From: a virus
Lineage: Duplodnaviria > Caudoviricetes
DNA: 54,946 nucleotides
Reading direction: 5' to 3' (one strand)
IMG/VR virus record: IMGVR_UViG_3300023106_000155
Span: 1 to 54,946 of that record
Positions 1,493 through 54,165 of this stretch are shown piece after piece (the first letter of the stretch is position 1; each line of letters begins with the position of its first letter). The position numbers and the translations under genes are program-made. The notes below the pieces were generated by a model. It did not search any database. It saw only the letters and a list, made by a program, of their open reading frames with translations, and was not told the DNA's origin.

Positions 1493-1876
1493 ATGTATGC
1501 AATCTGTGAATTCCAGCTGCCTGTCAAACTTCATATTGCAGGAATGGGTATTAATAAAGAAGCGTTGAAAGATATTTCTTTAACGCTTATTTCCTATTTA
1601 AAAAATCGGCAAGCAGTCCTAACAAGCGTAGACCAGCATTTTGGCGATATTGACAATCAAAACGATAATGAAGTAAACCCGCCTCAAGTGGATTGCACTT
1701 TTTTTGAAGTCAGCATTAACTTAGACCAACATCAGCGCGAAGACTGGAGGACATTTGACAATCTAATTTATGATAAGGTGATTGCGGAATTGGAATCAGA
1801 TGATTTATATATTTCGGCATTCTGGAACCGTGGACGTGAAGAGCATATTGCATTCATAAAAGATAATAACAACTGA
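1493..1876 (+). CDS. Hypothetical acidic protein, paralog 1 of triplet
   Basis: 127-aa ORF coupled to next gene (TGATG); aligns by eye with 2350..2733. Confidence 0.8.
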   Translation: MYAICEFQLPVKLHIAGMGINKEALKDISLTLISYLKNRQAVLTSVDQHFGDIDNQNDNEVNPPQVDCTFFEVSINLDQHQREDWRTFDNLIYDKVIAELESDDLYISAFWNRGREEHIAFIKDNNN

Positions 1877-2343
1877 TGGACTATTACAAAATAAGGCTCA
1901 AACTTTCTAAAAGTATTCTTCCTAAATTTAAGGAAGAAGAGCTTCAATGGTTTGCTGTCAAAAAGCTGGTAAAAGAAGGTAAAGGAGAAATTATTGTGCT
2001 TGAAAAGTCCGATGATGAATTTGACAAACCAGCAGGGCTTCCAGAATTTCCAGAATGGAATATAAAATTAAAGACAGATTTATATTTTGATTTTTCAAAA
2101 CTGCTGACCGATGATGAAGCAAGTGACAGTCAAAAGATATTTGCAAAGCTTTTCGAAGAATTGGAACAAAGCAATGTTTTGGAATATTCTTATGAAAATG
2201 AAAGTGGCAGATTTGAAAGCTGGGCATACTTCGATAATTCTGATTTTGCGGAAGCTGAAATGATTGATAAAAAGAATCCAGGCGATGGAACAAAACAAAC
2301 TCCTGAGCAAATCGATATGTTTAAAAAGAAACGCAAAAAATAA
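1876..2343 (+). CDS. Hypothetical protein, probable paralog 2 of triplet
   Basis: 155-aa ORF; IFAKLFEELE matches the IxxKVxxEL helix of its neighbours. Confidence 0.8.
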   Translation: MDYYKIRLKLSKSILPKFKEEELQWFAVKKLVKEGKGEIIVLEKSDDEFDKPAGLPEFPEWNIKLKTDLYFDFSKLLTDDEASDSQKIFAKLFEELEQSNVLEYSYENESGRFESWAYFDNSDFAEAEMIDKKNPGDGTKQTPEQIDMFKKKRKK

Positions 2344-2352
2344 AATAATTTG

Positions 2353-2733
2353 ATGAAAGCACTTGTAGAGATAAAGCTAAACAAATTGATAAGCGACGTT
2401 CGTATTAAACAATTAAATTCCAATGTATATGAAGATGTAATTGATACGCTGCTGGAAGATGATGGCTATACTCTTCTCCTTGTCTCAAAATTTGTAGCCT
2501 CTCAAGCACATGTGAAAAATTTTACTGCCAGCAATATGCCAAATGTCACTTTCGTGTCATTAGTTATAGAATTGCAAGAAGAACAAATTTTAAATTTTGA
2601 AAGCTATGAAAATGTAATTTTAGGCAAAGTTCTTGACGAACTAGGAACAAAATATTTACAGATTATTGATTTGCCCGGCGAAGACGATGACAACTTTTTA
2701 TTTTTCGGATCCGACTTTGAAATCGACAACTAG
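2353..2733 (+). CDS. Hypothetical acidic protein, paralog 3 of triplet
   Basis: ORF with ATG at 2353 (TTG at 2350); stop overlaps the convergent SRAP stop (CTAG). Confidence 0.8.
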   Translation: MKALVEIKLNKLISDVRIKQLNSNVYEDVIDTLLEDDGYTLLLVSKFVASQAHVKNFTASNMPNVTFVSLVIELQEEQILNFESYENVILGKVLDELGTKYLQIIDLPGEDDDNFLFFGSDFEIDN

Positions 2734-3371
2734 AACAACTGCAAAGGCATTTTGTCAACTGGTTCTGCAATCAGTTCAACTTCGCTTCTGTTGTGGTAAA
2801 TTTCCATAGGTTCTCCTTTCAGCCAAAGTTCTTCTTCTTGTTTTCGCAATACAACCGGCATTCTTTTTTTGCTGTTGTGGATTTCTGTCATTAACTCATT
2901 TGCGTCGGTAGTAAGAATGGTATAAGTCAAATTTATATTTCCACTTGAATCCGTATTTTCATTGAATAATCCCGCAAATGCAAAAGGCTCATTATCCTTT
3001 GTATAAATGCGATGCTTTATTTTTTCTTTTCCTACATGCTTCCATTCAAAAAAAGAAGTTGCCAGCACAAGGCATCTGTTGTCCAGCGAATGCTTGAATG
3101 AATTCTTTGTTTCTAAGGTTTCTATTTTAGCGTTTAGCGTATTTGATTTCTTCCAAAACTCTTTTGCATTGTCCTTTGCAAAAAAAGGCACAAGTCCCCA
3201 TTGCGCATTCACAATTATGCCAGATTCTTTATTTGATATTATCGGAGTTGCCGGATGCGTAAATCCGTTATACTCTTCTGAGATCATAAAATTTTCAGGG
3301 TCTTCCATCATTGCCTTGAACAATTTTTCAAGCTTTTTCAATGAGGCCATTTGTTGAAAATAGTAGCACAT
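2730..3371 (-). CDS. SOS response-associated peptidase (SRAP/YedK/HMCES family)
   Basis: N-terminal M-C, WGLVP, NAKIET, RCLV..FFEW, FAFAGL, IHNSKKRMPVVL. Confidence 0.95.
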   Translation of the reverse strand: MCYYFQQMASLKKLEKLFKAMMEDPENFMISEEYNGFTHPATPIISNKESGIIVNAQWGLVPFFAKDNAKEFWKKSNTLNAKIETLETKNSFKHSLDNRCLVLATSFFEWKHVGKEKIKHRIYTKDNEPFAFAGLFNENTDSSGNINLTYTILTTDANELMTEIHNSKKRMPVVLRKQEEELWLKGEPMEIYHNRSEVELIAEPVDKMPLQLF

Positions 3372-3398
3372 AATTCTTTTTTACTTAAAGATAAGAAA

Positions 3399-4661
3399 CT
3401 ATCTGCAATTGACAACAATCAGATCGCTCCAGCGTGTAGTATAGGACGGCGATAATCTTTCACGGCGCATTTTCCATTTTCTTTTCAAGCTTTGGCTTCC
3501 AAGCCTAATTTTGGTGTTTCCGATTTTGCGGTTCAATTTATCGATAACTTTTAAAACGTCTTGGTGTTTTGGATTTTCACCGCCAAATATTTTCATTTGG
3601 TAGCTGTCGGCTGGCGTAATCGTGCTGACAATTACCCCAGCTTTTTTATAGTCGATTCCTTCATAAAAAATCATATCGAGTGCAAGAATTGCCAGGCGGT
3701 TGATTTCAAAGGTTGAATTAGTTGGAAAATCTGTCTTGATTCTTATGTTTCTGTAATACTGCGGCAAATCTTGCCTAAAAGGATTTGACATTAAGAAAAC
3801 ATCAATCGCATTGGTGTGCAGTTTGTCTTTTCGTAATTTTTCTGCAACGGTTCCGGCATAGGTTGAAATCCTTTCCCGCAAATCTTTTTTATCCTTTAGC
3901 ATATTTTCAAAGCTGCGGGTGCATGCGATGTTCTGCTTTGGCTTAATTTCCTCAAAATCGATTGAACTAATTCCCATCAAATCATGTTTGAGGCGAAGTC
4001 CTACTACTGTCATGTTTTTACGAACCCAGTCATCATTCATTTGGCTGAATTTGTAGGCATCTGTAATATTTAACGCCATAAGCCTTTTGGCGTGCTGTCT
4101 TCCAATTCCCCAAACATCGCCAATCTTGGTCCACTTCAAAGCCTTGATTCTTTTTTCATCACTATCGATAACGTATGCATTGCCGGTACGGTCAGGAAAT
4201 TTCTTTGCAATCTTATTTGCAATTTTTGCAAGTGCTTTTGTCGGGGCAATTCCAACAGAAACGGGAATCCCTGTGCATTTCAAAACTCGTTTGTGTATAG
4301 CCTTTCCGTGTTGGTGCAAGTCCCAATTTTCAAAACCTATGAATTTCAGAAAGGCTTCATCGATGGAATAAACTTCCAAATCGGGTGTGAATTCTGCAAG
4401 CGTGGACATTACACGCTTTGACATATCGCCATAAAGCGCATAATTGGAAGAAAACACGTGAACATTGTTTTTTTCAAAAACATCTTTAAACTGGTGCGCC
4501 GGAGCGCCCATCGGACAAAAAGGCTTGCACTCATTTGAACGTGCAATAACACATCCGTCATTGTTTGACAGTATGGCGATTGGCTTTCCATTAAGCGATG
4601 GATCAAACACACGCTGGCAGGAAGCATAAAAATTATTACAATCTACAAGGCCAAACATCAC
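3399..4661 (-). CDS. umuC: Y-family DNA polymerase V subunit UmuC
   Basis: DCNNFYAS, SNNDGC, YSIDEAF, VWGIG, C-terminal LSPSYTTRW. Confidence 0.96.
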   Translation of the reverse strand: MMFGLVDCNNFYASCQRVFDPSLNGKPIAILSNNDGCVIARSNECKPFCPMGAPAHQFKDVFEKNNVHVFSSNYALYGDMSKRVMSTLAEFTPDLEVYSIDEAFLKFIGFENWDLHQHGKAIHKRVLKCTGIPVSVGIAPTKALAKIANKIAKKFPDRTGNAYVIDSDEKRIKALKWTKIGDVWGIGRQHAKRLMALNITDAYKFSQMNDDWVRKNMTVVGLRLKHDLMGISSIDFEEIKPKQNIACTRSFENMLKDKKDLRERISTYAGTVAEKLRKDKLHTNAIDVFLMSNPFRQDLPQYYRNIRIKTDFPTNSTFEINRLAILALDMIFYEGIDYKKAGVIVSTITPADSYQMKIFGGENPKHQDVLKVIDKLNRKIGNTKIRLGSQSLKRKWKMRRERLSPSYTTRWSDLIVVNCR

Positions 4662-5110
4662 CTGAAGGATTTAATGACGTTGATCACAATTCCCCAGATA
4701 AGAAGTTCATTTTCAGAGGTAACTTTTATAGGAGCATAAGCCTCATTTTCGGCAACCAACCAAACTATATCTTTTTCAATCAGAATTGTCTTAACGGTAA
4801 ATTCTCCGTCCAAATAACAGACAGCAATATCTCCATTTTTCGGCTCAAGTGATTTGTCTATGACCATGATATCGCCATTGCAGATGCCTACGTCTTTCAT
4901 CGAGTTGCCTTTGACTTTGGCGTAAAAAGTTGCGCTGGGATGCTTGATGAAAGTTGCATTGAAATCTAGTTCATTTTCAAGGAAGTCATCAGCAGGAGAA
5001 GGAAAACCAGCTGAAACACCGCCATCAAAAAAAGGAAGGCTCAGTGCAGTCCCTGTATTTGCTGTAAAAAACTCTAAAGTTTCGCTGTCGTGCAATCTGA
5101 TCACTTTCAT
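4658..5110 (-). CDS. umuD: UmuD (S24 autopeptidase)
   Basis: VSAGFPSPA cleavage region, GNSM Ser, FTVK Lys; overlaps umuC start. Confidence 0.95.
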   Translation of the reverse strand: MKVIRLHDSETLEFFTANTGTALSLPFFDGGVSAGFPSPADDFLENELDFNATFIKHPSATFYAKVKGNSMKDVGICNGDIMVIDKSLEPKNGDIAVCYLDGEFTVKTILIEKDIVWLVAENEAYAPIKVTSENELLIWGIVINVIKSFR

Positions 5111-5205
5111 AGTTCTGCATTTTATGGACTACAAAGCTATGACTGAATTTTATAAATTAAATATTAAAGTTTTCAGATTAACATTTGATGTAAGATTGTA
5201 CACAT

Positions 5206-5230
5206 AAAAAAAGCGCCGAGATTGGCGCTT
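5206..5230 (-). terminator. Intrinsic terminator separating the small-gene operon from umuDC
   Basis: AAGCGCC/GGCGCTT stem with T tract on - strand. Confidence 0.75.
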
Positions 5231-5372
5231 AAATATTTATAAATTCACTAGATGGAGCATAATATTCCCGTCCATCATCTAATTTTATTATTGTAGTTAA
5301 TGGCCTTCCTGTAGGCTGAACTTCTTTTACGAAAACACCTTGGTGTCCTGTCAATTTATGTTTTAGTCTCAT
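5229..5372 (-). CDS. 47-aa small protein MRLKHKLTGHQGVFVKEVQPTGRPLTTIIKLDDGREYYAPSSEFINI (below ORF-track cutoff; beta-rich, possibly SH3-like)
   Basis: Manual translation; start overlaps end of HTH gene; stop abuts terminator. Confidence 0.65.
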   Translation of the reverse strand: MRLKHKLTGHQGVFVKEVQPTGRPLTTIIKLDDGREYYAPSSEFINI

Positions 5373-5562
5373 ATTCTTTTGCTTTATTAAAAATAAAACT
5401 TTTTAGATCATCTAGATTCTTTTGATTGAACGTATGCCTTTCGGAATTGTCATTTTTCTTATTCCTGAATGTTGCATAAGTCACACCCATAGCCTCAGCA
5501 GCTTTAATTCCAGACATTCCAAAAGCATCCAATATTTTAAGTATTTCTTCTTTTGGTTCCAT
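5356..5562 (-). CDS. Small helix-turn-helix regulator (Aca-like position)
   Basis: MSGIKAAEAMGVTYATFRNK HTH pattern. Confidence 0.8.
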   Translation of the reverse strand: MEPKEEILKILDAFGMSGIKAAEAMGVTYATFRNKKNDNSERHTFNQKNLDDLKSFIFNKAKEYETKT

Positions 5563-5564
5563 AT

Positions 5565-5879
5565 TTAAATATTATTTTCATCCCATCTAAAAAATTCACT
5601 CAGATACTTCCAAGCACCTTTCAAAATAGCATCTTCGTTGTGTTCAAACTGATCGCAATTGTTTTGCACGAAAACACCAAACCAATTTTCACCTTCATAT
5701 TCAAATCGATCTTGTTTTCCAGTAAACTGAAAATCCCCGAATTCATCAACATTTATAAATTCAATTAGTGATAAGCTTGGACGGTGGTAAATCCAAATCC
5801 TGTCATCATTCTGCGTACCATCTTCAATAGCAATCTGGCACATTAGATAATTTGGCTGTTCGAAGTTAAATTTTTCCAT
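5565..5879 (-). CDS. Hypothetical acidic protein
   Basis: 104-aa ORF in operon with the HTH gene. Confidence 0.8.
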   Translation of the reverse strand: MEKFNFEQPNYLMCQIAIEDGTQNDDRIWIYHRPSLSLIEFINVDEFGDFQFTGKQDRFEYEGENWFGVFVQNNCDQFEHNEDAILKGAWKYLSEFFRWDENNI

Positions 5880-5961
5880 ATATTTGTTTTGAATTTAATT
5901 GTTTCAATTAAGTTTCGTTTCTACAAAACGTTAAGCCTCTCTTTTCGAGAGGCTTTTTTGT

Positions 5962-6270
5962 CTATAATTCATCGCTGATTTTATCTTCAGCATAAGGTTG
6001 ACCAAGTTCATAAGTGTAAACATCATCGATATATCTTTCAGTTCCATTTTCAATTTCTTCAACTGAAAGCAGGATATCATTTTTATCTGAATCATACCAA
6101 CCTTCACTTTCAACGAAAATTTCACCGGCTGAACTTTCGGAAATTTCTTCATGTCGCTGTTTGGCAAAAATCTGTTTTGCTTCCTCAAAACTGTAAGCCA
6201 GAACATGTCTTACTAAATTAAATTGACCACCTTGTCTTTTTTTGTAAACTGGGAATTCACTTGGATTCAT
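5962..6270 (-). CDS. Hypothetical highly acidic protein
   Basis: 102-aa ORF, first gene after the operator-containing promoter. Confidence 0.8.
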   Translation of the reverse strand: MNPSEFPVYKKRQGGQFNLVRHVLAYSFEEAKQIFAKQRHEEISESSAGEIFVESEGWYDSDKNDILLSVEEIENGTERYIDDVYTYELGQPYAEDKISDEL

Positions 6271-6311
6271 AATTTTAAAATTTAATTATTATTTGTTTCA
6301 TTTCTACACTG

Positions 6312-6339
6312 CGAATATACGTTACTTTTTTGTAACGTA
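6312..6339 (-). promoter_or_regulatory. Promoter -7 (TATATTCG) overlapped by palindromic operator TACGTTAC-N6-GTAACGTA
   Basis: Perfect 8-bp arms at 6318..6339; same site recurs at 29150..29169. Confidence 0.75.
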
Positions 6340-6371
6340 AAAATAAATATAAAACTTTAACATTTTTGCAT

Positions 6372-6569
6372 AAAAAAACTGCATTCAGTAATCTGAATAC
6401 AGTTTAGAAACACTTTCGTGTCGGTCCAAAAATACTATTCTTGGAGATGGTAATTATCTCTTGAAAAGAAAAATCTTTTATAAAAAAAAGAGGACGTGCG
6501 ATCCTCTTTTTTGTGGTGAATCAATCCTCAAGGATTCATCTTTAGCAGTAAACCCCACTTGGAACTGCT
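6372..6569 (-). ncRNA. Candidate structured sRNA (chain of about 8 hairpins including two terminators)
   Basis: TATATTTG -7 at 6575..6582, back-to-back stems, no minus-strand ORF of note, terminators at 6482..6512 and 6372..6405. Confidence 0.5.
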
Positions 6570-7235: not shown

Positions 7236-7784
7236 TCAATTTACCAAATTATCATATTTGATGATTGTTGAAGCAACGAACTTAGCAACCAGCGGTTTCT
7301 TCTCATCCCAAGCCTTCAAGTCATTTGGGTTTGAAATGAAGCAATGTTCAATCAAGACCGCAATGCCAGGCTTATTTAAGATTCCAATCTTTTTTCTAGG
7401 AGACTGGCTTTCAGTTTTTACACCACGATTTGCAATACCAAGAATTTTCGAAATACCGTCAACCAATTCCTTTGCCATTTGTTTGCTCAACGCTCCAGCA
7501 TTGTCAGAAACAAAAACTTCTGTTCCTGTTGCTTTTGAATTTGCTGATGCATTCATGTGATTATCGACAATCACATCAGTTCTGTTTGGCTTGATTCGTG
7601 ATTGCAAAACAGTATTGGTTTCGCTGTCATTATCAGTATCAAAATCATGTCCTTTCAATTCGGCCAGAACCAAATTTCTAAGGCACATCATTTCTTCACT
7701 TTCTTTTCTTCCGTTGTAAGTTGCACCAGGATCATTTAAGTGATGTCCTGCTAATGGAAATGCTTTTTTATTGCTACTACTCAT
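7236..7784 (-). CDS. Endolysin, N-acetylmuramoyl-L-alanine amidase (Amidase_3)
   Basis: AGH..DPGA, E, HMNAS, LIEHCFISN zinc-amidase motifs. Confidence 0.92.
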   Translation of the reverse strand: MSSSNKKAFPLAGHHLNDPGATYNGRKESEEMMCLRNLVLAELKGHDFDTDNDSETNTVLQSRIKPNRTDVIVDNHMNASANSKATGTEVFVSDNAGALSKQMAKELVDGISKILGIANRGVKTESQSPRKKIGILNKPGIAVLIEHCFISNPNDLKAWDEKKPLVAKFVASTIIKYDNLVN

Positions 7785-28626: not shown

Positions 28627-29064
28627 TTATCCAGAAGTAGCTTTCCTGATCAATTCTGCAATTCTTGCTTCGCGCTCATCGGAGTTGGTAACGACAATTG
28701 GCGCGTCTGGATCTCCTTTAATGACATGTGTTTTATCTGGAATAATACCTTCAAGTTTGTCGATATGTTTGTCATAAGCCAAAAGTACCCGAAGTCCTTG
28801 AGGAGTTTTTTGATACTTTTCTTCCATCAAAGTCATTCTACGTTTAAGGACATCGACTTTCATATTCCTTTTCTTTTCAATCTCTAACTGTACTCCTTCA
28901 TACCAGAGGTCAAAAGCTTTCTTAAGAAGGTTCTTTGCTTGACGGCGTCCAACGCCATATAAATCAATGATTTCCTTCATAATCAAATAGTCAGCTTTGC
29001 CCTCGATAATCCACTTCTGGATTTCAAAGACGCGTCTTTCAGTTTCTAATTTAGTGGATTTCAT
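28627..29064 (-). CDS. terS: Terminase small subunit
   Basis: N-terminal HTH-like (YGVGRRQAKN), coiled coil, C-terminal GDPDAPI; first gene of late region. Confidence 0.7.
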   Translation of the reverse strand: MKSTKLETERRVFEIQKWIIEGKADYLIMKEIIDLYGVGRRQAKNLLKKAFDLWYEGVQLEIEKKRNMKVDVLKRRMTLMEEKYQKTPQGLRVLLAYDKHIDKLEGIIPDKTHVIKGDPDAPIVVTNSDEREARIAELIRKATSG

Positions 29065-29088: not shown

Positions 29089-29176
29089 CAAAAGTAACCA
29101 AAATAATTATATAGTAACTTTTTTAGTTATTATTTAATCAAAAGCTTGCACGTTACATTTTTGTAACGTATATTTG
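29089..29176. promoter_or_regulatory. Divergent promoters: terS (-7 TACTTTTG, boxes 29094..29110 and 29114..29130) and plus-strand operon (operator ACGTTAC-N6-GTAACGT at 29150..29169, -7 TATATTTG)
   Basis: Motifs match those at 28100..28141 and 6318..6339. Confidence 0.7.
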
Positions 29177-29208: not shown

Positions 29209-29433
29209 ATGAAATCTTCAAAATTAAACCTTACAGCAAAGCAATTAAGAGTAATCACATGGATGGATGATGTGACTGGAATGGATAATAAAATTGAAGG
29301 AAATGAATTAGTAATTTTCTACAAAGGGATGCCTACTTACTGGGAACATAGAATCTCAATGGAAGATGTTGCTGAAATTCTTCATGACATTATCAATATT
29401 GAAGATGAGAATTTTTCTTTAGCAAATAACTAA
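29209..29433 (+). CDS. Small acidic hypothetical protein
   Basis: 74-aa ORF with good start context, downstream of the operator-containing promoter. Confidence 0.7.
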   Translation: MKSSKLNLTAKQLRVITWMDDVTGMDNKIEGNELVIFYKGMPTYWEHRISMEDVAEILHDIINIEDENFSLANN

Positions 29434-29506
29434 AAAACAGGGTAGCCGAAAACTGAATAGAGTAGGCAACTAGAACTGGCGGCAACAGCAATACGGCATC
29501 AAAATC

Positions 29507-29695
29507 ATGTTAGAGGAAGCGTTCAAAAACATCCAGCAGATGGTCACGTCTCGAAAAGTAGTAGAACAGATCAGATTTAACAAGCTGACCGTTACGCTCA
29601 AGCTCAAAGGCCAGCCGGCCGAAAAGTGGGGCTACGGTTCTGCGATAGACATCCTCGAGTCAATAGAATTTGCTGAAAAGCAATTAAAAAAGTAA
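29507..29695 (+). CDS. Small hypothetical protein
   Basis: 62-aa ORF followed by terminator. Confidence 0.65.
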   Translation: MLEEAFKNIQQMVTSRKVVEQIRFNKLTVTLKLKGQPAEKWGYGSAIDILESIEFAEKQLKK

Positions 29696-29697
29696 AC

Positions 29698-29723
29698 AAA
29701 AAGCCCCTCGATTGAGGGGTTTT
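29698..29723. terminator. Bidirectional terminator
   Basis: AAGCCCCTC-GATT-GAGGGGTTT flanked by A and T tracts. Confidence 0.8.
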
Positions 29724-53391: not shown

Positions 53392-54165
53392 ATGGAAAGT
53401 ATCGCAAATCGCGTACAGTCATTGATGGAAGATAAAGGCTTGACAGCATATCAGTTATCTAAAAAGGGCAATATATCAGCAGCAACATTAAGCAGGTTGC
53501 TTAAACAAAATTCCAAACCTAATTCTGAAACTATTTCTAAAATATGCAATTATTTTGAAATTAGTGAGGCTTGGCTTTTGAGTGGCAATGGTGATAAGTA
53601 TATTGATGCATCAAAACTCATAGTTAATGATGCTTATTCTATAGATGTTCATACAAATAGCAATGCAAATCAATTTATTAAACTTCCAAATGGCCAATAT
53701 TTAATGACAATGCCACTCGCAGAATTTAGCATACAGGCTGGCTTACTTGATCATTATCAAGATTTAGAATTCCTAGCAGATATGCAACAGCACAGTATCA
53801 TAGTTGAAAAACCCGTTAAAGGTCGATATATCGCTTTTAGGGTTAAAGGCGATAGCATGGAAGATGGCTCTAATGAATCAATCAGCCAGAATAGTATCGT
53901 ATCTACTAGAGAGCTTAACAGGCAGTATTGGTTAAGCAAACTTAGAACTAAAGACTTTCCATACTGGGTAATTTATACTTCTCAATCAAAGTATCCGCTC
54001 TTGAAAGAAATAACAAATCACGATGTCGAAAACGGAATAATTACTTGTCACTCCTTAAATGATTCTCCAGAGTATGGAGATTTTCCATTATCAATAAATG
54101 ATATCCAGGCTTTATTTTATGTTATAGATGTAAGCAAAACAATATCAAGAAAACTAACTTACTAG
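53392..54165 (+). CDS. cI: CI-like repressor (XRE HTH + S24 autopeptidase)
   Basis: LTAYQLSK..ISAATLSR HTH, WLLSG.G, QAG cleavage site, GDSM Ser, LLK Lys. Confidence 0.92.
   Translation: MESIANRVQSLMEDKGLTAYQLSKKGNISAATLSRLLKQNSKPNSETISKICNYFEISEAWLLSGNGDKYIDASKLIVNDAYSIDVHTNSNANQFIKLPNGQYLMTMPLAEFSIQAGLLDHYQDLEFLADMQQHSIIVEKPVKGRYIAFRVKGDSMEDGSNESISQNSIVSTRELNRQYWLSKLRTKDFPYWVIYTSQSKYPLLKEITNHDVENGIITCHSLNDSPEYGDFPLSINDIQALFYVIDVSKTISRKLTY

What the first reader, a model, noticed from the sequence alone, without database searches (positions are those of the whole stretch)
5229..6339. acr-aca-like operon: small acidic genes plus an HTH repressor behind a perfect operator
Seen: a stand-alone unit with promoter at 6312 and terminator at 5206. 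It holds a 102-aa protein (about 23 D/E vs 10 K/R), a 104-aa acidic protein, a 68-aa HTH and a 47-aa protein, and TACGTTAC-N6-GTAACGTA overlaps the promoter. Known: anti-CRISPR operons pair small acidic genes with an Aca HTH that autorepresses through a promoter inverted repeat, giving a burst on infection. Flavobacteriaceae carry type II-C and VI-B CRISPR systems. Inference: these are candidate new anti-CRISPR or anti-defence proteins.
Basis: partly seen in the sequence, partly recalled or inferred. Interest (0 to 1): 0.8.

Follow-up and report, generated by a model that had tools for sequence, protein, structure and literature searches.

The report
Self-repressed phage accessory-gene cassette
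A prophage carries a small self-contained operon whose last conserved gene, a tiny DNA-binding protein, most likely shuts off its own promoter through a palindrome, while the genes in front of it are swapped freely between related phages, the layout known from anti-CRISPR operons, although what the cargo proteins do is still unknown.

Summary
On the minus strand, between two terminators, lie a promoter, a 102-aa and a 104-aa acidic protein, a 68-aa HTH protein and a 47-aa ORF. The perfect palindrome TACGTTAC-N6-GTAACGTA abuts the promoter's -7 box.

- The HTH family (phrog_32215) was found in 35 related loci. A palindrome of the same geometry (ACG-N14-CGT) fused to a -7 box lies upstream on the same strand in 29 of them. 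It occurs in 0 of 21 control loci.
- The motif is single-copy in 8 of 10 related phage genomes searched.
- The fourth base of each arm tracks one residue of the predicted recognition helix (N/Q/H with T, K with G, S/C/M with A).
- At least 16 unrelated small cargo families sit between operator and HTH.
- This phage has a second operator copy (29150-29169) driving a separate two-gene island without an HTH.

So the regulatory reading, an Aca-like autorepressor with swappable cargo, is well supported. The anti-CRISPR function is untested. Both acidic proteins fold confidently but match no solved structure and no Pfam or PADLOC family. No host genome was available.

The 104-aa family is the best anti-defence candidate. 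It sits next to a small HTH gene in 16 of 18 loci, abutting or overlapping it wherever I read the boundaries, and the partners comprise three HTH sequence types unrelated to the window's own.

The parts
6376..6405 (-). Terminator hairpin closing the upstream lysis operon. A second one lies at 6484-6512. Together they isolate the cassette on its 5' side.
   Evidence: -15.8 kcal/mol (z -5.8) and -12.7 kcal/mol (z -6.3), both followed by T runs.
6318..6339 (.). Operator 1: perfect palindrome TACGTTAC-N6-GTAACGTA with the conserved core ACG-N14-CGT at 6319-6338. It fills the spacer of the cassette promoter.
   Evidence: The same geometry is found upstream of 29 of 35 homologous HTH genes.
6312..6319 (-). 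-7 box TATATTCG. Sister loci have TATATTTG or TATCTTTG. It shares its first T with the operator arm. The -33 position upstream (about 6340-6343) is only TTTT here but TTG in most sister loci.
   Evidence: The Bacteroidetes promoter consensus (TTTG / TAnnTTTG) is recalled, not from a call.
6271..6311 (-). Conserved short 5' leader (GTAGAAATGAAAC...AATTAAATTTTAAA). Sister cassettes share it even though their first genes differ.
   Evidence: alignment A4.
5962..6270 (-). Cargo gene 1: 102-aa acidic protein (pI 4.38) from a rare family. Predicted alpha/beta fold with no known relative.
   Evidence: 2 hits including itself; 5 representatives; pLDDT 81.1; no PDB match.
5933..5955 (-). Internal hairpin after the 102-aa gene. 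It has a good T run only on the + strand, so on the cassette strand it is probably a leaky terminator or attenuator.
   Evidence: -15.8 kcal/mol, z -5.65.
5880..5932 (-). Relic of an operator arm plus leader (AACGT-TTTGTAGAAACGAAAC...CAATTAAATT) in front of the 104-aa gene. This suggests the 102-aa gene was inserted by recombination within the leader.
   Evidence: alignment A4, row WIN_pre104.
5565..5879 (-). Cargo gene 2: 104-aa acidic protein (pI 4.25), family phrog_18499. Predicted fold is a beta-sheet plus a long C-terminal helix. Invariant residues are P9 C14 D25 R27 W29 S37 L38 E40 F52 V69 Q72 N74 C75.
   Evidence: E 2.9e-38; 128 clusters; pLDDT 92.7; no informative fold match; HTH neighbour in 16 of 18 loci.
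5356..5562 (-). 68-aa HTH protein, family phrog_32215: the conserved anchor gene and proposed autorepressor. The predicted recognition helix is TYATFRNKKN.
   Evidence: (E 2.5e-23).
5229..5372 (-). 47-aa basic ORF overlapping the HTH stop by 17 nt. Whether it is a real gene is uncertain.
   Evidence: no relative in the loci; one weak phage hit, E 9e-3.
5204..5230 (-). Intrinsic terminator closing the cassette.
   Evidence: -11.6 kcal/mol, followed by a T run.
29149..29176 (+). Operator 2 (CACGTTAC-N6-GTAACGTA) fused to the -7 box TATATTTG and preceded by TTG. It is the promoter of a second, plus-strand island that has no HTH gene.
29209..29433 (+). Island-2 gene 1: 74-aa acidic protein (pI 4.63) with no relatives found.
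29436..29468 (+). Match to the Rfam motif DUF805b RNA (RF02914) between the two island-2 genes.
   Evidence: 39.5 bits against a gathering score of 35.6.
29507..29695 (+). Island-2 gene 2: 62-aa basic protein. Its N-terminal 26 residues resemble a 56-aa cargo protein that sits directly upstream of the HTH in L013, L030 and L033.
   Evidence: (46% over 26 aa, pairwise E 9e-7).
29700..29723 (+). Terminator hairpin closing island 2.
   Evidence: -15.7 kcal/mol, z -5.1.

Best explanation
The unit at 6345-5204 (minus strand) is an autorepressed accessory-gene cassette of a temperate Flavobacteriia-type phage. It sits between the lysis genes and the umuDC/SRAP/integrase end of the prophage.

Proposed mechanism:
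1. A Bacteroidetes-type promoter (TTG, about 20 nt, TAnnTTTG) drives a short conserved leader, then two acidic cargo proteins (102 and 104 aa), the 68-aa HTH and a 47-aa ORF.
2. The HTH, probably as a dimer, binds the palindrome ACG-N14-CGT that occupies the whole promoter spacer. This blocks RNA polymerase.
3. The cassette therefore fires when the DNA enters a cell without the HTH, and is then throttled to a low steady level, including in the lysogen.
4. In this phage the same protein most likely also represses in trans a second promoter with the same operator at 29150, which drives a 74-aa and a 62-aa protein.

How far each step is supported:
- Shown by sequence comparison: the operator, promoter and HTH co-occur; the operator is single-copy per genome; operator and recognition helix co-vary; cargo is exchanged.
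- Inferred: binding, dimerisation, repression and timing.

The cargo's function is unknown. The most likely class is counter-defence or host take-over: roughly 0.35 for any anti-defence role and about 0.12 for anti-CRISPR specifically. The 104-aa protein is the best candidate.
For: (1) Conservation of the regulatory shell. A strict motif was defined as ACG-N14-CGT with at least 6 of 7 arm pairs complementary, followed by at least 4 of 5 fixed -7 box positions. It is present in 29 of 35 loci that encode an HTH homolog, in 0 of 21 control loci (110 kb) without one, and exactly twice in the window. In all 29 loci it lies 370-1500 bp upstream of the HTH on the same strand. L035 has an ACA-N14-TGT variant of the same geometry.

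(2) Single copy. A related strict pattern occurs once per record in 8 of 10 related phage records searched whole, always at the HTH island. The two misses, RAP44 and L017's record, have -7 box variants that the pattern excludes.

(3) Covariation. Across 16 distinct operator-HTH combinations in which I read the helix, the fourth base of the arms follows the residue x in the helix motif F-[RKN]-x-K-[KR]:
- N with T: the window and L005/L006. L015/L016 is mixed, with C in one arm and T in the other.
- K with G: L012, and separately the distant L031.
- S with A: L007, L009, L017, L008/L010, L011, L013.
- C with A: L001, L018, L019.
- M with A: L022/L023.
- Q with T (L004) and H with T (L020).
L012 differs from L005 by N to K in the helix and by a symmetric T-to-G / A-to-C change in both arms.

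(4) Position. The palindrome fills the gap between TTG and the -7 box in sister loci, which is where a bound protein would occlude the polymerase.

(5) Cargo exchange. Seven clusters and nine singletons sit between operator and HTH across the loci. The conserved leader is joined to different first genes.

(6) HTH assignment.

(7) Precedent. Known Aca regulators are predicted, and for Aca14 shown, to control more than one operon (PMC13551039, abstract and section 22 read).

(8) Cargo properties:
- Both proteins are small, acidic and phage-restricted, with confident models and no known fold.
- The 104-aa family has a small HTH gene as immediate neighbour in 16 of 18 loci.
- Three of those partners (RAP44 gp77, 6H gp25, L052) gave no BLASTP alignment to the window's HTH.
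Against: - No binding, repression or expression data exist. No RNA run holds the region.
- The HTH domain is detected only weakly.
- The covariation is partly phylogenetic. The S and C classes are each one clade, so the independent events are few: K with G twice, and the N-to-K switch within one clade.
- In the window the -33 position is TTTT rather than TTG.
- An internal hairpin could separate the 102-aa gene from the rest, and no good promoter was seen in front of the 104-aa gene.
- Six of 35 homolog loci, the most distant ones, lack the motif.
- Against an anti-defence role: nothing matches a known Acr or anti-defence family; sister cassettes carry 46-49-aa membrane peptides and 32-33-aa basic peptides rather than soluble acidic proteins; the host's defence systems are unknown.
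- The invariant C, D, R, E, Q and N residues of the 104-aa family would also fit an enzyme or a toxin.
Confidence: 0.6

Rival explanations
1. The regulatory shell is the same, but the cargo are lysogen-benefit 'moron' genes rather than counter-defence proteins. Examples would be superinfection exclusion, membrane or envelope modification, or DNA-damage tolerance helpers. The HTH then simply keeps their expression low and constant in the prophage.
For: - The cassette lies in the classic moron position, between the lysis genes and the integrase end, next to phage-borne umuD, umuC and SRAP.
- It has its own promoter and terminators.
- Sister cassettes carry tail-anchored membrane peptides of 46-49 aa.
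- In Flavobacterium prophages the HTH island is followed by SRAP homologs (cluster c8).
- Lysogens of RAP44-like phages resist superinfection (PMC12169736, abstract passage seen).
Against: - The two window cargo proteins are soluble, acidic and have no membrane segment.
- The same HTH island in RAP44-type phages is inserted among head genes, and the 104-aa family also occurs in lytic-type F. psychrophilum phage early regions. A prophage-only role fits these less well.
- A near-consensus promoter with a tight operator suits a burst on entry.
Confidence: 0.25
2. The 104-aa protein and the HTH form a toxin-antitoxin or abortive-infection-like pair. The 104-aa protein would be an enzyme-like effector, and the HTH its antitoxin and autorepressor. 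The 102-aa gene would be a later insertion.
For: - An adjacent HTH gene was found in 16 of 18 loci, often with overlapping or abutting reading frames.
- The family has invariant polar residues and cysteines.
- The best PDB sequence hits of the HTH profile are HigA antitoxins (E 0.04-0.1).
- Autoregulated promoters are typical of type II TA systems (general knowledge).
- The relic operator and leader in front of the 104-aa gene suggests an older two-gene unit.
Against: - The protein is strongly acidic (pI 4.25), unlike most type II toxins.
- It has no hit in Pfam, PADLOC or PDB.
- The window's HTH family is found with at least 15 other cargo types and never again with the 104-aa family in 35 loci. 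It is therefore not a dedicated antitoxin.
- Two divergent family members stand without an HTH.
Confidence: 0.08
3. The palindrome is the site of some other factor, such as the phage CI-like repressor, a host regulator or a structural DNA element. The 68-aa protein would have an unrelated job, for example Cro-, CII- or excisionase-like.
For: - No binding data exist.
- Pfam's weak hits include the phage CII family (E 0.074).
- In three sister loci the HTH gene lies next to a roughly 400-aa ORF on the opposite strand. That ORF's identity was not checked.
Against: - The helix-operator covariation.
- One site per genome, always at the HTH's own promoter.
- No further copy near the CI/early region of the window, even with 3 mismatches allowed.
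[quoted passage not shown] CTAA-N5-TTAG occurs in the window only at chance level: 34 matches against 33 expected.
- In RAP44 the HTH island is far from the integrase.
Confidence: 0.07

Closest known systems
acr-aca operons with HTH Aca autorepressors (Aca1, Aca2, Aca10 and others)
   Same: - A small HTH gene lies at the 3' end of a short operon with its own strong promoter.
- An inverted repeat sits inside the promoter.
- The regulator is conserved while the small upstream genes vary between elements.
- The cassette is inserted at different places in phage genomes: among head genes in RAP44, and after the lysis genes here.
The papers on Aca repression were seen as a search listing and abstracts only.
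   Different: - There is no detectable sequence relation. Pfam gives no model above cut-off, and the family profile finds only HigA-type chains in the PDB sequence set.
- No cargo gene is a known Acr.
- The host phylum is Bacteroidota, and the promoter is of the -33/-7 type.
- Some sister cargo are membrane peptides.
Aca regulators predicted or shown to control several operons (Aca1, Aca2, Aca11, Aca13, Aca14; PMC13551039)
   Same: One regulator gene and more than one copy of its operator in front of separate small-gene operons. Here these are 6319-6338 and 29150-29169.
   Different: - The published cases are neighbouring operons (section 22). Here the two sites are 23 kb apart on opposite strands.
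- That paper's main text names no Flavobacterium, Bacteroid-, Riemerella or Chryseobacterium. Its supplements were not seen.
Phage morons (independently transcribed accessory genes flanked by a promoter and a terminator)
   Same: Own promoter and terminator, location at module boundaries, and variable content between otherwise similar phages.
   Different: Classic morons are not defined by a dedicated, co-travelling autorepressor with a co-varying operator.
Type II toxin-antitoxin modules with XRE/HigA-type antitoxins
   Same: A small HTH protein tightly coupled to a roughly 100-aa partner under an autoregulated promoter. The weak best PDB sequence hits are HigA.
   Different: - The partner is acidic and matches no toxin family.
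- The HTH family changes partners freely.

Membership tests
acr-aca operon (Aca-regulated anti-CRISPR locus) | A DNA-binding regulator (HTH or RHH) is encoded in the same operon as the small genes. | tested here: met
   The 68-aa gene starts 3 nt after the 104-aa stop codon. The HTH is supported only weakly by Pfam (E 0.052), by the PDB HigA hits (E 0.04) and by the hhalign register on XRE HTHs.
acr-aca operon (Aca-regulated anti-CRISPR locus) | An inverted-repeat operator lies within or overlaps the operon's own promoter. | tested here: met
   A perfect 8+8 palindrome abuts the -7 box. It is conserved in 29 of 35 homolog loci and in 0 of 21 controls.
acr-aca operon (Aca-regulated anti-CRISPR locus) | The regulator is conserved while the upstream small genes vary between elements (guilt by association). 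| tested here: met
   Seven clusters plus nine singleton cargo proteins sit between operator and HTH across the loci.
acr-aca operon (Aca-regulated anti-CRISPR locus) | The regulator binds the operator and represses transcription. | not testable with these tools
acr-aca operon (Aca-regulated anti-CRISPR locus) | At least one co-encoded protein inhibits a CRISPR-Cas system or is homologous to a known Acr. | tested here: inconclusive
   There is no match in Pfam, PADLOC or PDB sequences, no match for the 102-aa protein in PHROGs, only the unknown-function family phrog_18499 for the 104-aa protein, and no PDB fold match. No dedicated Acr database was on hand.
Known Aca families (Aca1-Aca14) by sequence | Significant sequence similarity to a described Aca family. 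| tested here: not met
   The profile of 19 homologs, searched against all PDB chain sequences, returns only HigA-type, EcfA and other chains at E 0.04 or weaker, none of them named Aca. That Aca1, Aca2 and Aca10 have solved structures is known from the titles, and I assume they are in that copy. Families without a structure could not be compared.
PHROG families | A match to the family profile. | tested here: met
   HTH: phrog_32215, E 2.5e-23. 104-aa protein: phrog_18499, E 2.9e-38. Both families are of unknown function. The 102-aa and 47-aa proteins have no match.
Type II toxin-antitoxin | The toxin is related to a known toxin family, and the toxin-antitoxin pairing is fixed. | tested here: not met
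   No toxin family hit. The window's HTH family pairs with many unrelated genes, and the 104-aa family pairs with several unrelated HTHs.
Bacteroidetes SOS (non-canonical LexA) regulon | A GGA-N5-TCC or CTAA-N5-TTAG operator in the promoter (PMC8565304). | tested here: not met
   The palindrome is ACG-N14-CGT. CTAA-N5-TTAG occurs only at chance level in the window and not at the cassette or umuD promoters. GGA-N5-TCC was not searched.

The most novel reading that the evidence does not exclude
The 68-aa protein founds the first Aca-type regulator family described for Bacteroidota phages. It would be a portable promoter-operator-repressor shell that has diversified into several orthogonal specificities through a one-residue / one-base-pair code (N/Q/H with T, K with G, S/C/M with A). 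Its at least 16 cargo families, plus the trans-regulated island at 29.2 kb, would be a largely untapped pool of counter-defence proteins against Flavobacteriia systems such as II-C Cas9 and VI-B Cas13b. The HTH-coupled 104-aa family (phrog_18499) would be the first to test.
Probability: 0.25. Interest if true: 0.75.

Novelty: new member of a known kind. Interest (0 to 1): 0.55.

Why it matters
Very few counter-defence genes are known from phages of Bacteroidota. By my recollection, Acr discovery elsewhere advanced mostly by following conserved Aca regulators to new cargo.

This cassette offers such an anchor. It can be searched by protein (phrog_32215) and by DNA (TTG-ACG-N14-CGT-TAnnTTTG). 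It already points to at least 16 small protein families in Flavobacterium, Riemerella and Salinimicrobium phages.

The repressor-operator pairs, with what looks like a simple specificity rule, would also be useful as compact orthogonal switches for Bacteroidota genetics.

If the cargo turn out to be ordinary lysogen-benefit genes, the finding is still a clean example of a modular, self-regulated moron shell.

Tried and rejected
- Known-family searches of the four proteins gave nothing of known function. Pfam, PHROGs and PADLOC were scanned; the only significant hits were the two unknown-function PHROG families named above. NCBIfam was not scanned.
- Island-2 proteins and three ORFs near the integrase also gave nothing significant.
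- Fold searches found no match at E <= 0.001: the 104-aa model against PDB and BFVD, and the 102-aa model against PDB. The best BFVD row is an uncharacterised Siphoviridae protein (E 1.6e-3, TMq 0.74). The kinase N-lobe rows (TM about 0.3) are treated as noise.
- The ESM Atlas returned only unnamed viral clusters with scores below 0.9.
- SOS/LexA idea: rejected.
- Host CRISPR content could not be checked. The record is the provirus alone, and Cas1 was not found in it.
- Association of the 104-aa family with CRISPR types across genomes was abandoned. Only 3 of 401 genomes sampled around Flavobacterium carry the family.
- Expression: no RNA holder is listed. The only run is a DNA metagenome that may be the source.
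- Is AcrVIB1 a member of the 104-aa family? The idea came from the similar mass and the Riemerella origin. The positions given in the preprint (D37/D38, S56, T70) do not line up with RAP44 gp78 as read at any single offset I tried by eye. It is not supported, and it is not properly tested without the sequence.
- The island-2 74-aa protein has no relatives in viral contigs.
- The 47-aa ORF has one weak phage hit.
- DUF3560 was found on one sister cargo. The literature search gave only plasmid annotations (listing only).
- Distant relatives of the 102-aa protein lie in arrays of small phage genes without an HTH or this operator.
- A Mantel-type statistic for the covariation was considered and not run, because shared ancestry would inflate it.
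- Not in print, as far as searched: searches found no paper linking this HTH family, RAP44 gp35 or these operators to anti-CRISPR regulation. The supplements of PMC13551039 and of the RAP44-like phage paper were not seen and could hold relevant lists.

- The look-up of encoding contigs was stated closed and was not called.
- Supplementary files were not requested.
Full report
WHAT IS THERE

The window is a complete provirus record of 54,946 bases.
- A tyrosine-recombinase gene lies at the left end (1-1407, Pfam Phage_integrase).
- A CI-like gene lies at 53392-54165. From its translation it reads as an HTH-peptidase repressor; it was not scanned against any library.
- Head, tail and lysis genes are on the minus strand, including an amidase at 7236-7784.

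The finding lies just downstream of the lysis genes. Beyond it come phage-borne umuD (Peptidase_S24), a 420-aa ORF that reads like umuC (not scanned) and an SRAP peptidase.

On the minus strand the unit reads as follows:
- two terminator hairpins (6484-6512, 6376-6405);
- the palindrome TACGTTAC-N6-GTAACGTA (6339-6318), fused to TATATTCG (6319-6312);
- a 41-nt leader;
- a 102-aa ORF;
- a hairpin (5955-5933);
- a 104-aa ORF;
- a 68-aa ORF that starts 3 nt after the 104-aa stop;
- a 47-aa ORF that overlaps the 68-aa stop;
- a terminator (5230-5211 plus a T run).

THE PALINDROME IS NOT CHANCE, AND IT HAS A TWIN

With up to three mismatches the pattern occurs twice in the window against 0.04 expected. 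The second copy (29149-29170), read on the plus strand, is preceded by TTG and followed by TATATTTG. About 40 nt further on, a 74-aa and then a 62-aa ORF follow, closed by a terminator.

The phage therefore has two small, separately transcribed islands with the same promoter-operator design, and only one of them has the HTH gene.

THE HTH FAMILY AND ITS OPERATOR TRAVEL TOGETHER

The 68-aa protein belongs to phrog_32215 (E 2.5e-23). It has 19 cluster-level homologs among 5.8 billion proteins and a highly conserved core.

I collected 35 loci with a homolog:
- RAP44 from GenBank;
- 24 IMG/VR loci;
- 10 genome loci from Flavobacterium, Riemerella, Salinimicrobium and a Bacteroidota MAG.
Several are duplicates of the same element seen in two collections.

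In 29 of the 35, a palindrome with the core ACG-N14-CGT lies 370-1500 bp upstream of the HTH gene on the same strand. It is mostly preceded by TTG and is fused to a -7 box. The same strict motif is absent from 21 control loci without this HTH (110 kb). It is found once per record in 8 of 10 related phage records searched whole. The six loci without it hold the most divergent homologs, and one of these has an ACA-N14-TGT palindrome of the same geometry.

The consensus of Bacteroidetes promoters (TTTG around -33, TAnnTTTG around -7) is my recollection and not a tool result. If it applies, the operator fills the spacer exactly.

COVARIATION

The outer ACG/CGT is constant. The inner four bases of each arm differ between lineages but stay symmetric.

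hhalign places residues 13-39 of the protein on helix 2, the turn and helix 3 of XRE-type regulators, which makes TYATFRNKKN the recognition helix. Its seventh residue varies, and the fourth base of the arm varies with it:

| Helix residue | Arm base 4 | Loci |
|---|---|---|
| N | T | window, L005/L006 (L015/L016 is mixed: C in one arm, T in the other) |
| K | G | L012, and independently the distant L031 |
| S | A | six distinct combinations |
| C | A | three distinct combinations |
| M | A | L022/L023 |
| Q | T | L004 |
| H | T | L020 |

L012 sits inside the N-type group by overall similarity and context. It differs by N to K, and by T to G and A to C in the two arms. Shared ancestry explains part of this pattern. 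The K/G recurrence and the symmetric switch are what one expects if this helix reads these bases as a dimer.

I take this as the main evidence that the 68-aa protein binds the palindrome. It is indirect evidence.

CARGO IS EXCHANGED

Between operator and HTH I found seven protein clusters and nine singletons that share no BLASTP hit at 1e-4. The loci fall into four layouts:
- Riemerella phages of the RAP44 type: a 32-aa basic peptide ORF, a 49-aa tail-anchored membrane peptide and the HTH, inserted on the opposite strand among head genes.
- Flavobacterium prophages: two proteins of about 100 aa, from alternative families, precede the HTH. SRAP homologs follow further downstream.
- L005, L006 and L012: the island follows the lysis genes, as in the window, but carries the peptide set.
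- The window: the 102-aa and 104-aa proteins.

A 40-nt leader is conserved in front of different first genes. A relic of an operator arm plus leader lies in front of the window's 104-aa gene. This suggests that cargo is swapped by recombination in the leader and that the 102-aa gene is the newer arrival.

The gene next to the window's second island (28627-29064) is weakly similar to the gene that flanks the HTH island in the Flavobacterium prophages (E 0.004). Island 2 may therefore occupy the ancestral position of that type.

THE CARGO PROTEINS

- **102-aa protein.** It is nearly an orphan, with one close homolog and four distant representatives among 1.8 billion. Those relatives lie in arrays of small phage genes. 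Its model has pLDDT 81 and finds nothing in PDB.
- **104-aa protein.** It belongs to phrog_18499, with 128 clusters, mostly Flavobacterium-like. Thirteen positions are invariant, including two cysteines. The model has pLDDT 92.7 and no PDB fold match.
- **HTH partners of the 104-aa family.** In 16 of 18 loci it stands directly beside a small HTH gene:
  - an 81-89-aa XRE protein overlapping it upstream in Flavobacterium phages of the 6H type;
  - a 60-aa XRE protein downstream in RAP44, next to the integrase;
  - a 65-aa or a 70-aa HTH upstream in L051 and L052;
  - the 68-aa family in the window.

  Three of these partners were compared with the window's HTH and gave no alignment. Two divergent members have no HTH neighbour.

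A small acidic phage protein that keeps changing its HTH partner is the pattern of an Acr with different Acas. It would also fit a two-protein module of another kind.

WHAT IT MOST LIKELY DOES

The unit is a self-repressed accessory cassette. The promoter fires on entry or induction, the HTH accumulates, binds the spacer palindrome, and holds both islands at a low level.

This is how Aca1- and Aca2-type regulators are described (abstracts). Control of more than one operon by one Aca is documented or predicted for most Aca families (PMC13551039, abstract and section 22).

Membership in a known Aca family is not supported by sequence. No cargo protein is a known Acr. So I file it as something that works like an acr-aca locus and not as one. 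Anti-defence is the most likely cargo class but remains a guess of about one in three. Lysogen-benefit morons are the main alternative.

LIMITS

- There are no expression data, no host genome, no complex prediction and no Acr database.
- Gene calls in the loci come from a simple longest-ORF script that uses ATG starts only. Very small ORFs and alternative starts are therefore missed.

Noticed in passing
window 29436-29468 (+); L006 3127-3158 (+): A match above the gathering score to the Rfam cis-regulatory candidate DUF805b RNA (RF02914; 39.5 and 39.7 bits). It lies between the two genes of island 2, and again about 500 bp upstream of the operator in a sister phage. A motif described from bacterial genomes turns up repeatedly in phage accessory regions.
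   Followed up: partly
window 2730-5110 (-): The prophage carries umuD (Peptidase_S24), a umuC-like Y-family polymerase ORF and an SRAP peptidase between the cassette and the integrase. SRAP homologs also follow the HTH islands in Flavobacterium prophages (cluster c8). No published Bacteroidetes LexA box was seen at the umuD promoter.
   Followed up: partly
window 5880-5932 (-): A relic of an operator arm plus the conserved leader lies in front of the 104-aa gene. This points to leader-mediated cassette recombination.
   Followed up: partly
L001 3670-3770 and 3852-4001; L005 3706-3806 and 3867-4007; L012; L021: The long-leader cassette variants encode a conserved 32-33-aa basic peptide (starting MNFKVKIHF / MKFRFELSF) and a 46-49-aa tail-anchored membrane peptide in front of the HTH. 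A conserved hairpin lies between them. Their function is unknown.
   Followed up: no
L022 with L027, and L023 with L025 (each pair on one IMG/VR contig): Two phage genomes each carry two paralogs of the HTH. One has the ACG-N14-CGT operator and one lacks it.
   Followed up: no
window 1493-2733 (+): Three ORFs (127, 155 and 127 aa) beside the integrase have only faint PADLOC hits: HORMA at E 0.039 and a 2TM effector at E 0.016. They might be a small prophage-borne defence module, but this is far from shown.
   Followed up: no
GenBank OQ791282.1 (hit H13): A record named Shigella phage Henu10 matches the Riemerella-phage HTH gene at the same coordinates as Riemerella phage vB_RanS_PT15 (15590-15751). 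The organism label looks doubtful.
   Followed up: no
L007 3262-3906: One sister cassette carries a 214-aa DUF3560 protein as cargo (E 3.4e-35). In the four listed papers that mention the domain it is a plasmid or genome annotation (listing only).
   Followed up: partly
L003 2150-2170: A short palindrome, GTGCA-N2-TGCAC, lies about 25 nt upstream of RAP44 gp78, the 104-aa family member that is paired with the XRE gene gp77. It may be that pair's own operator.
   Followed up: no
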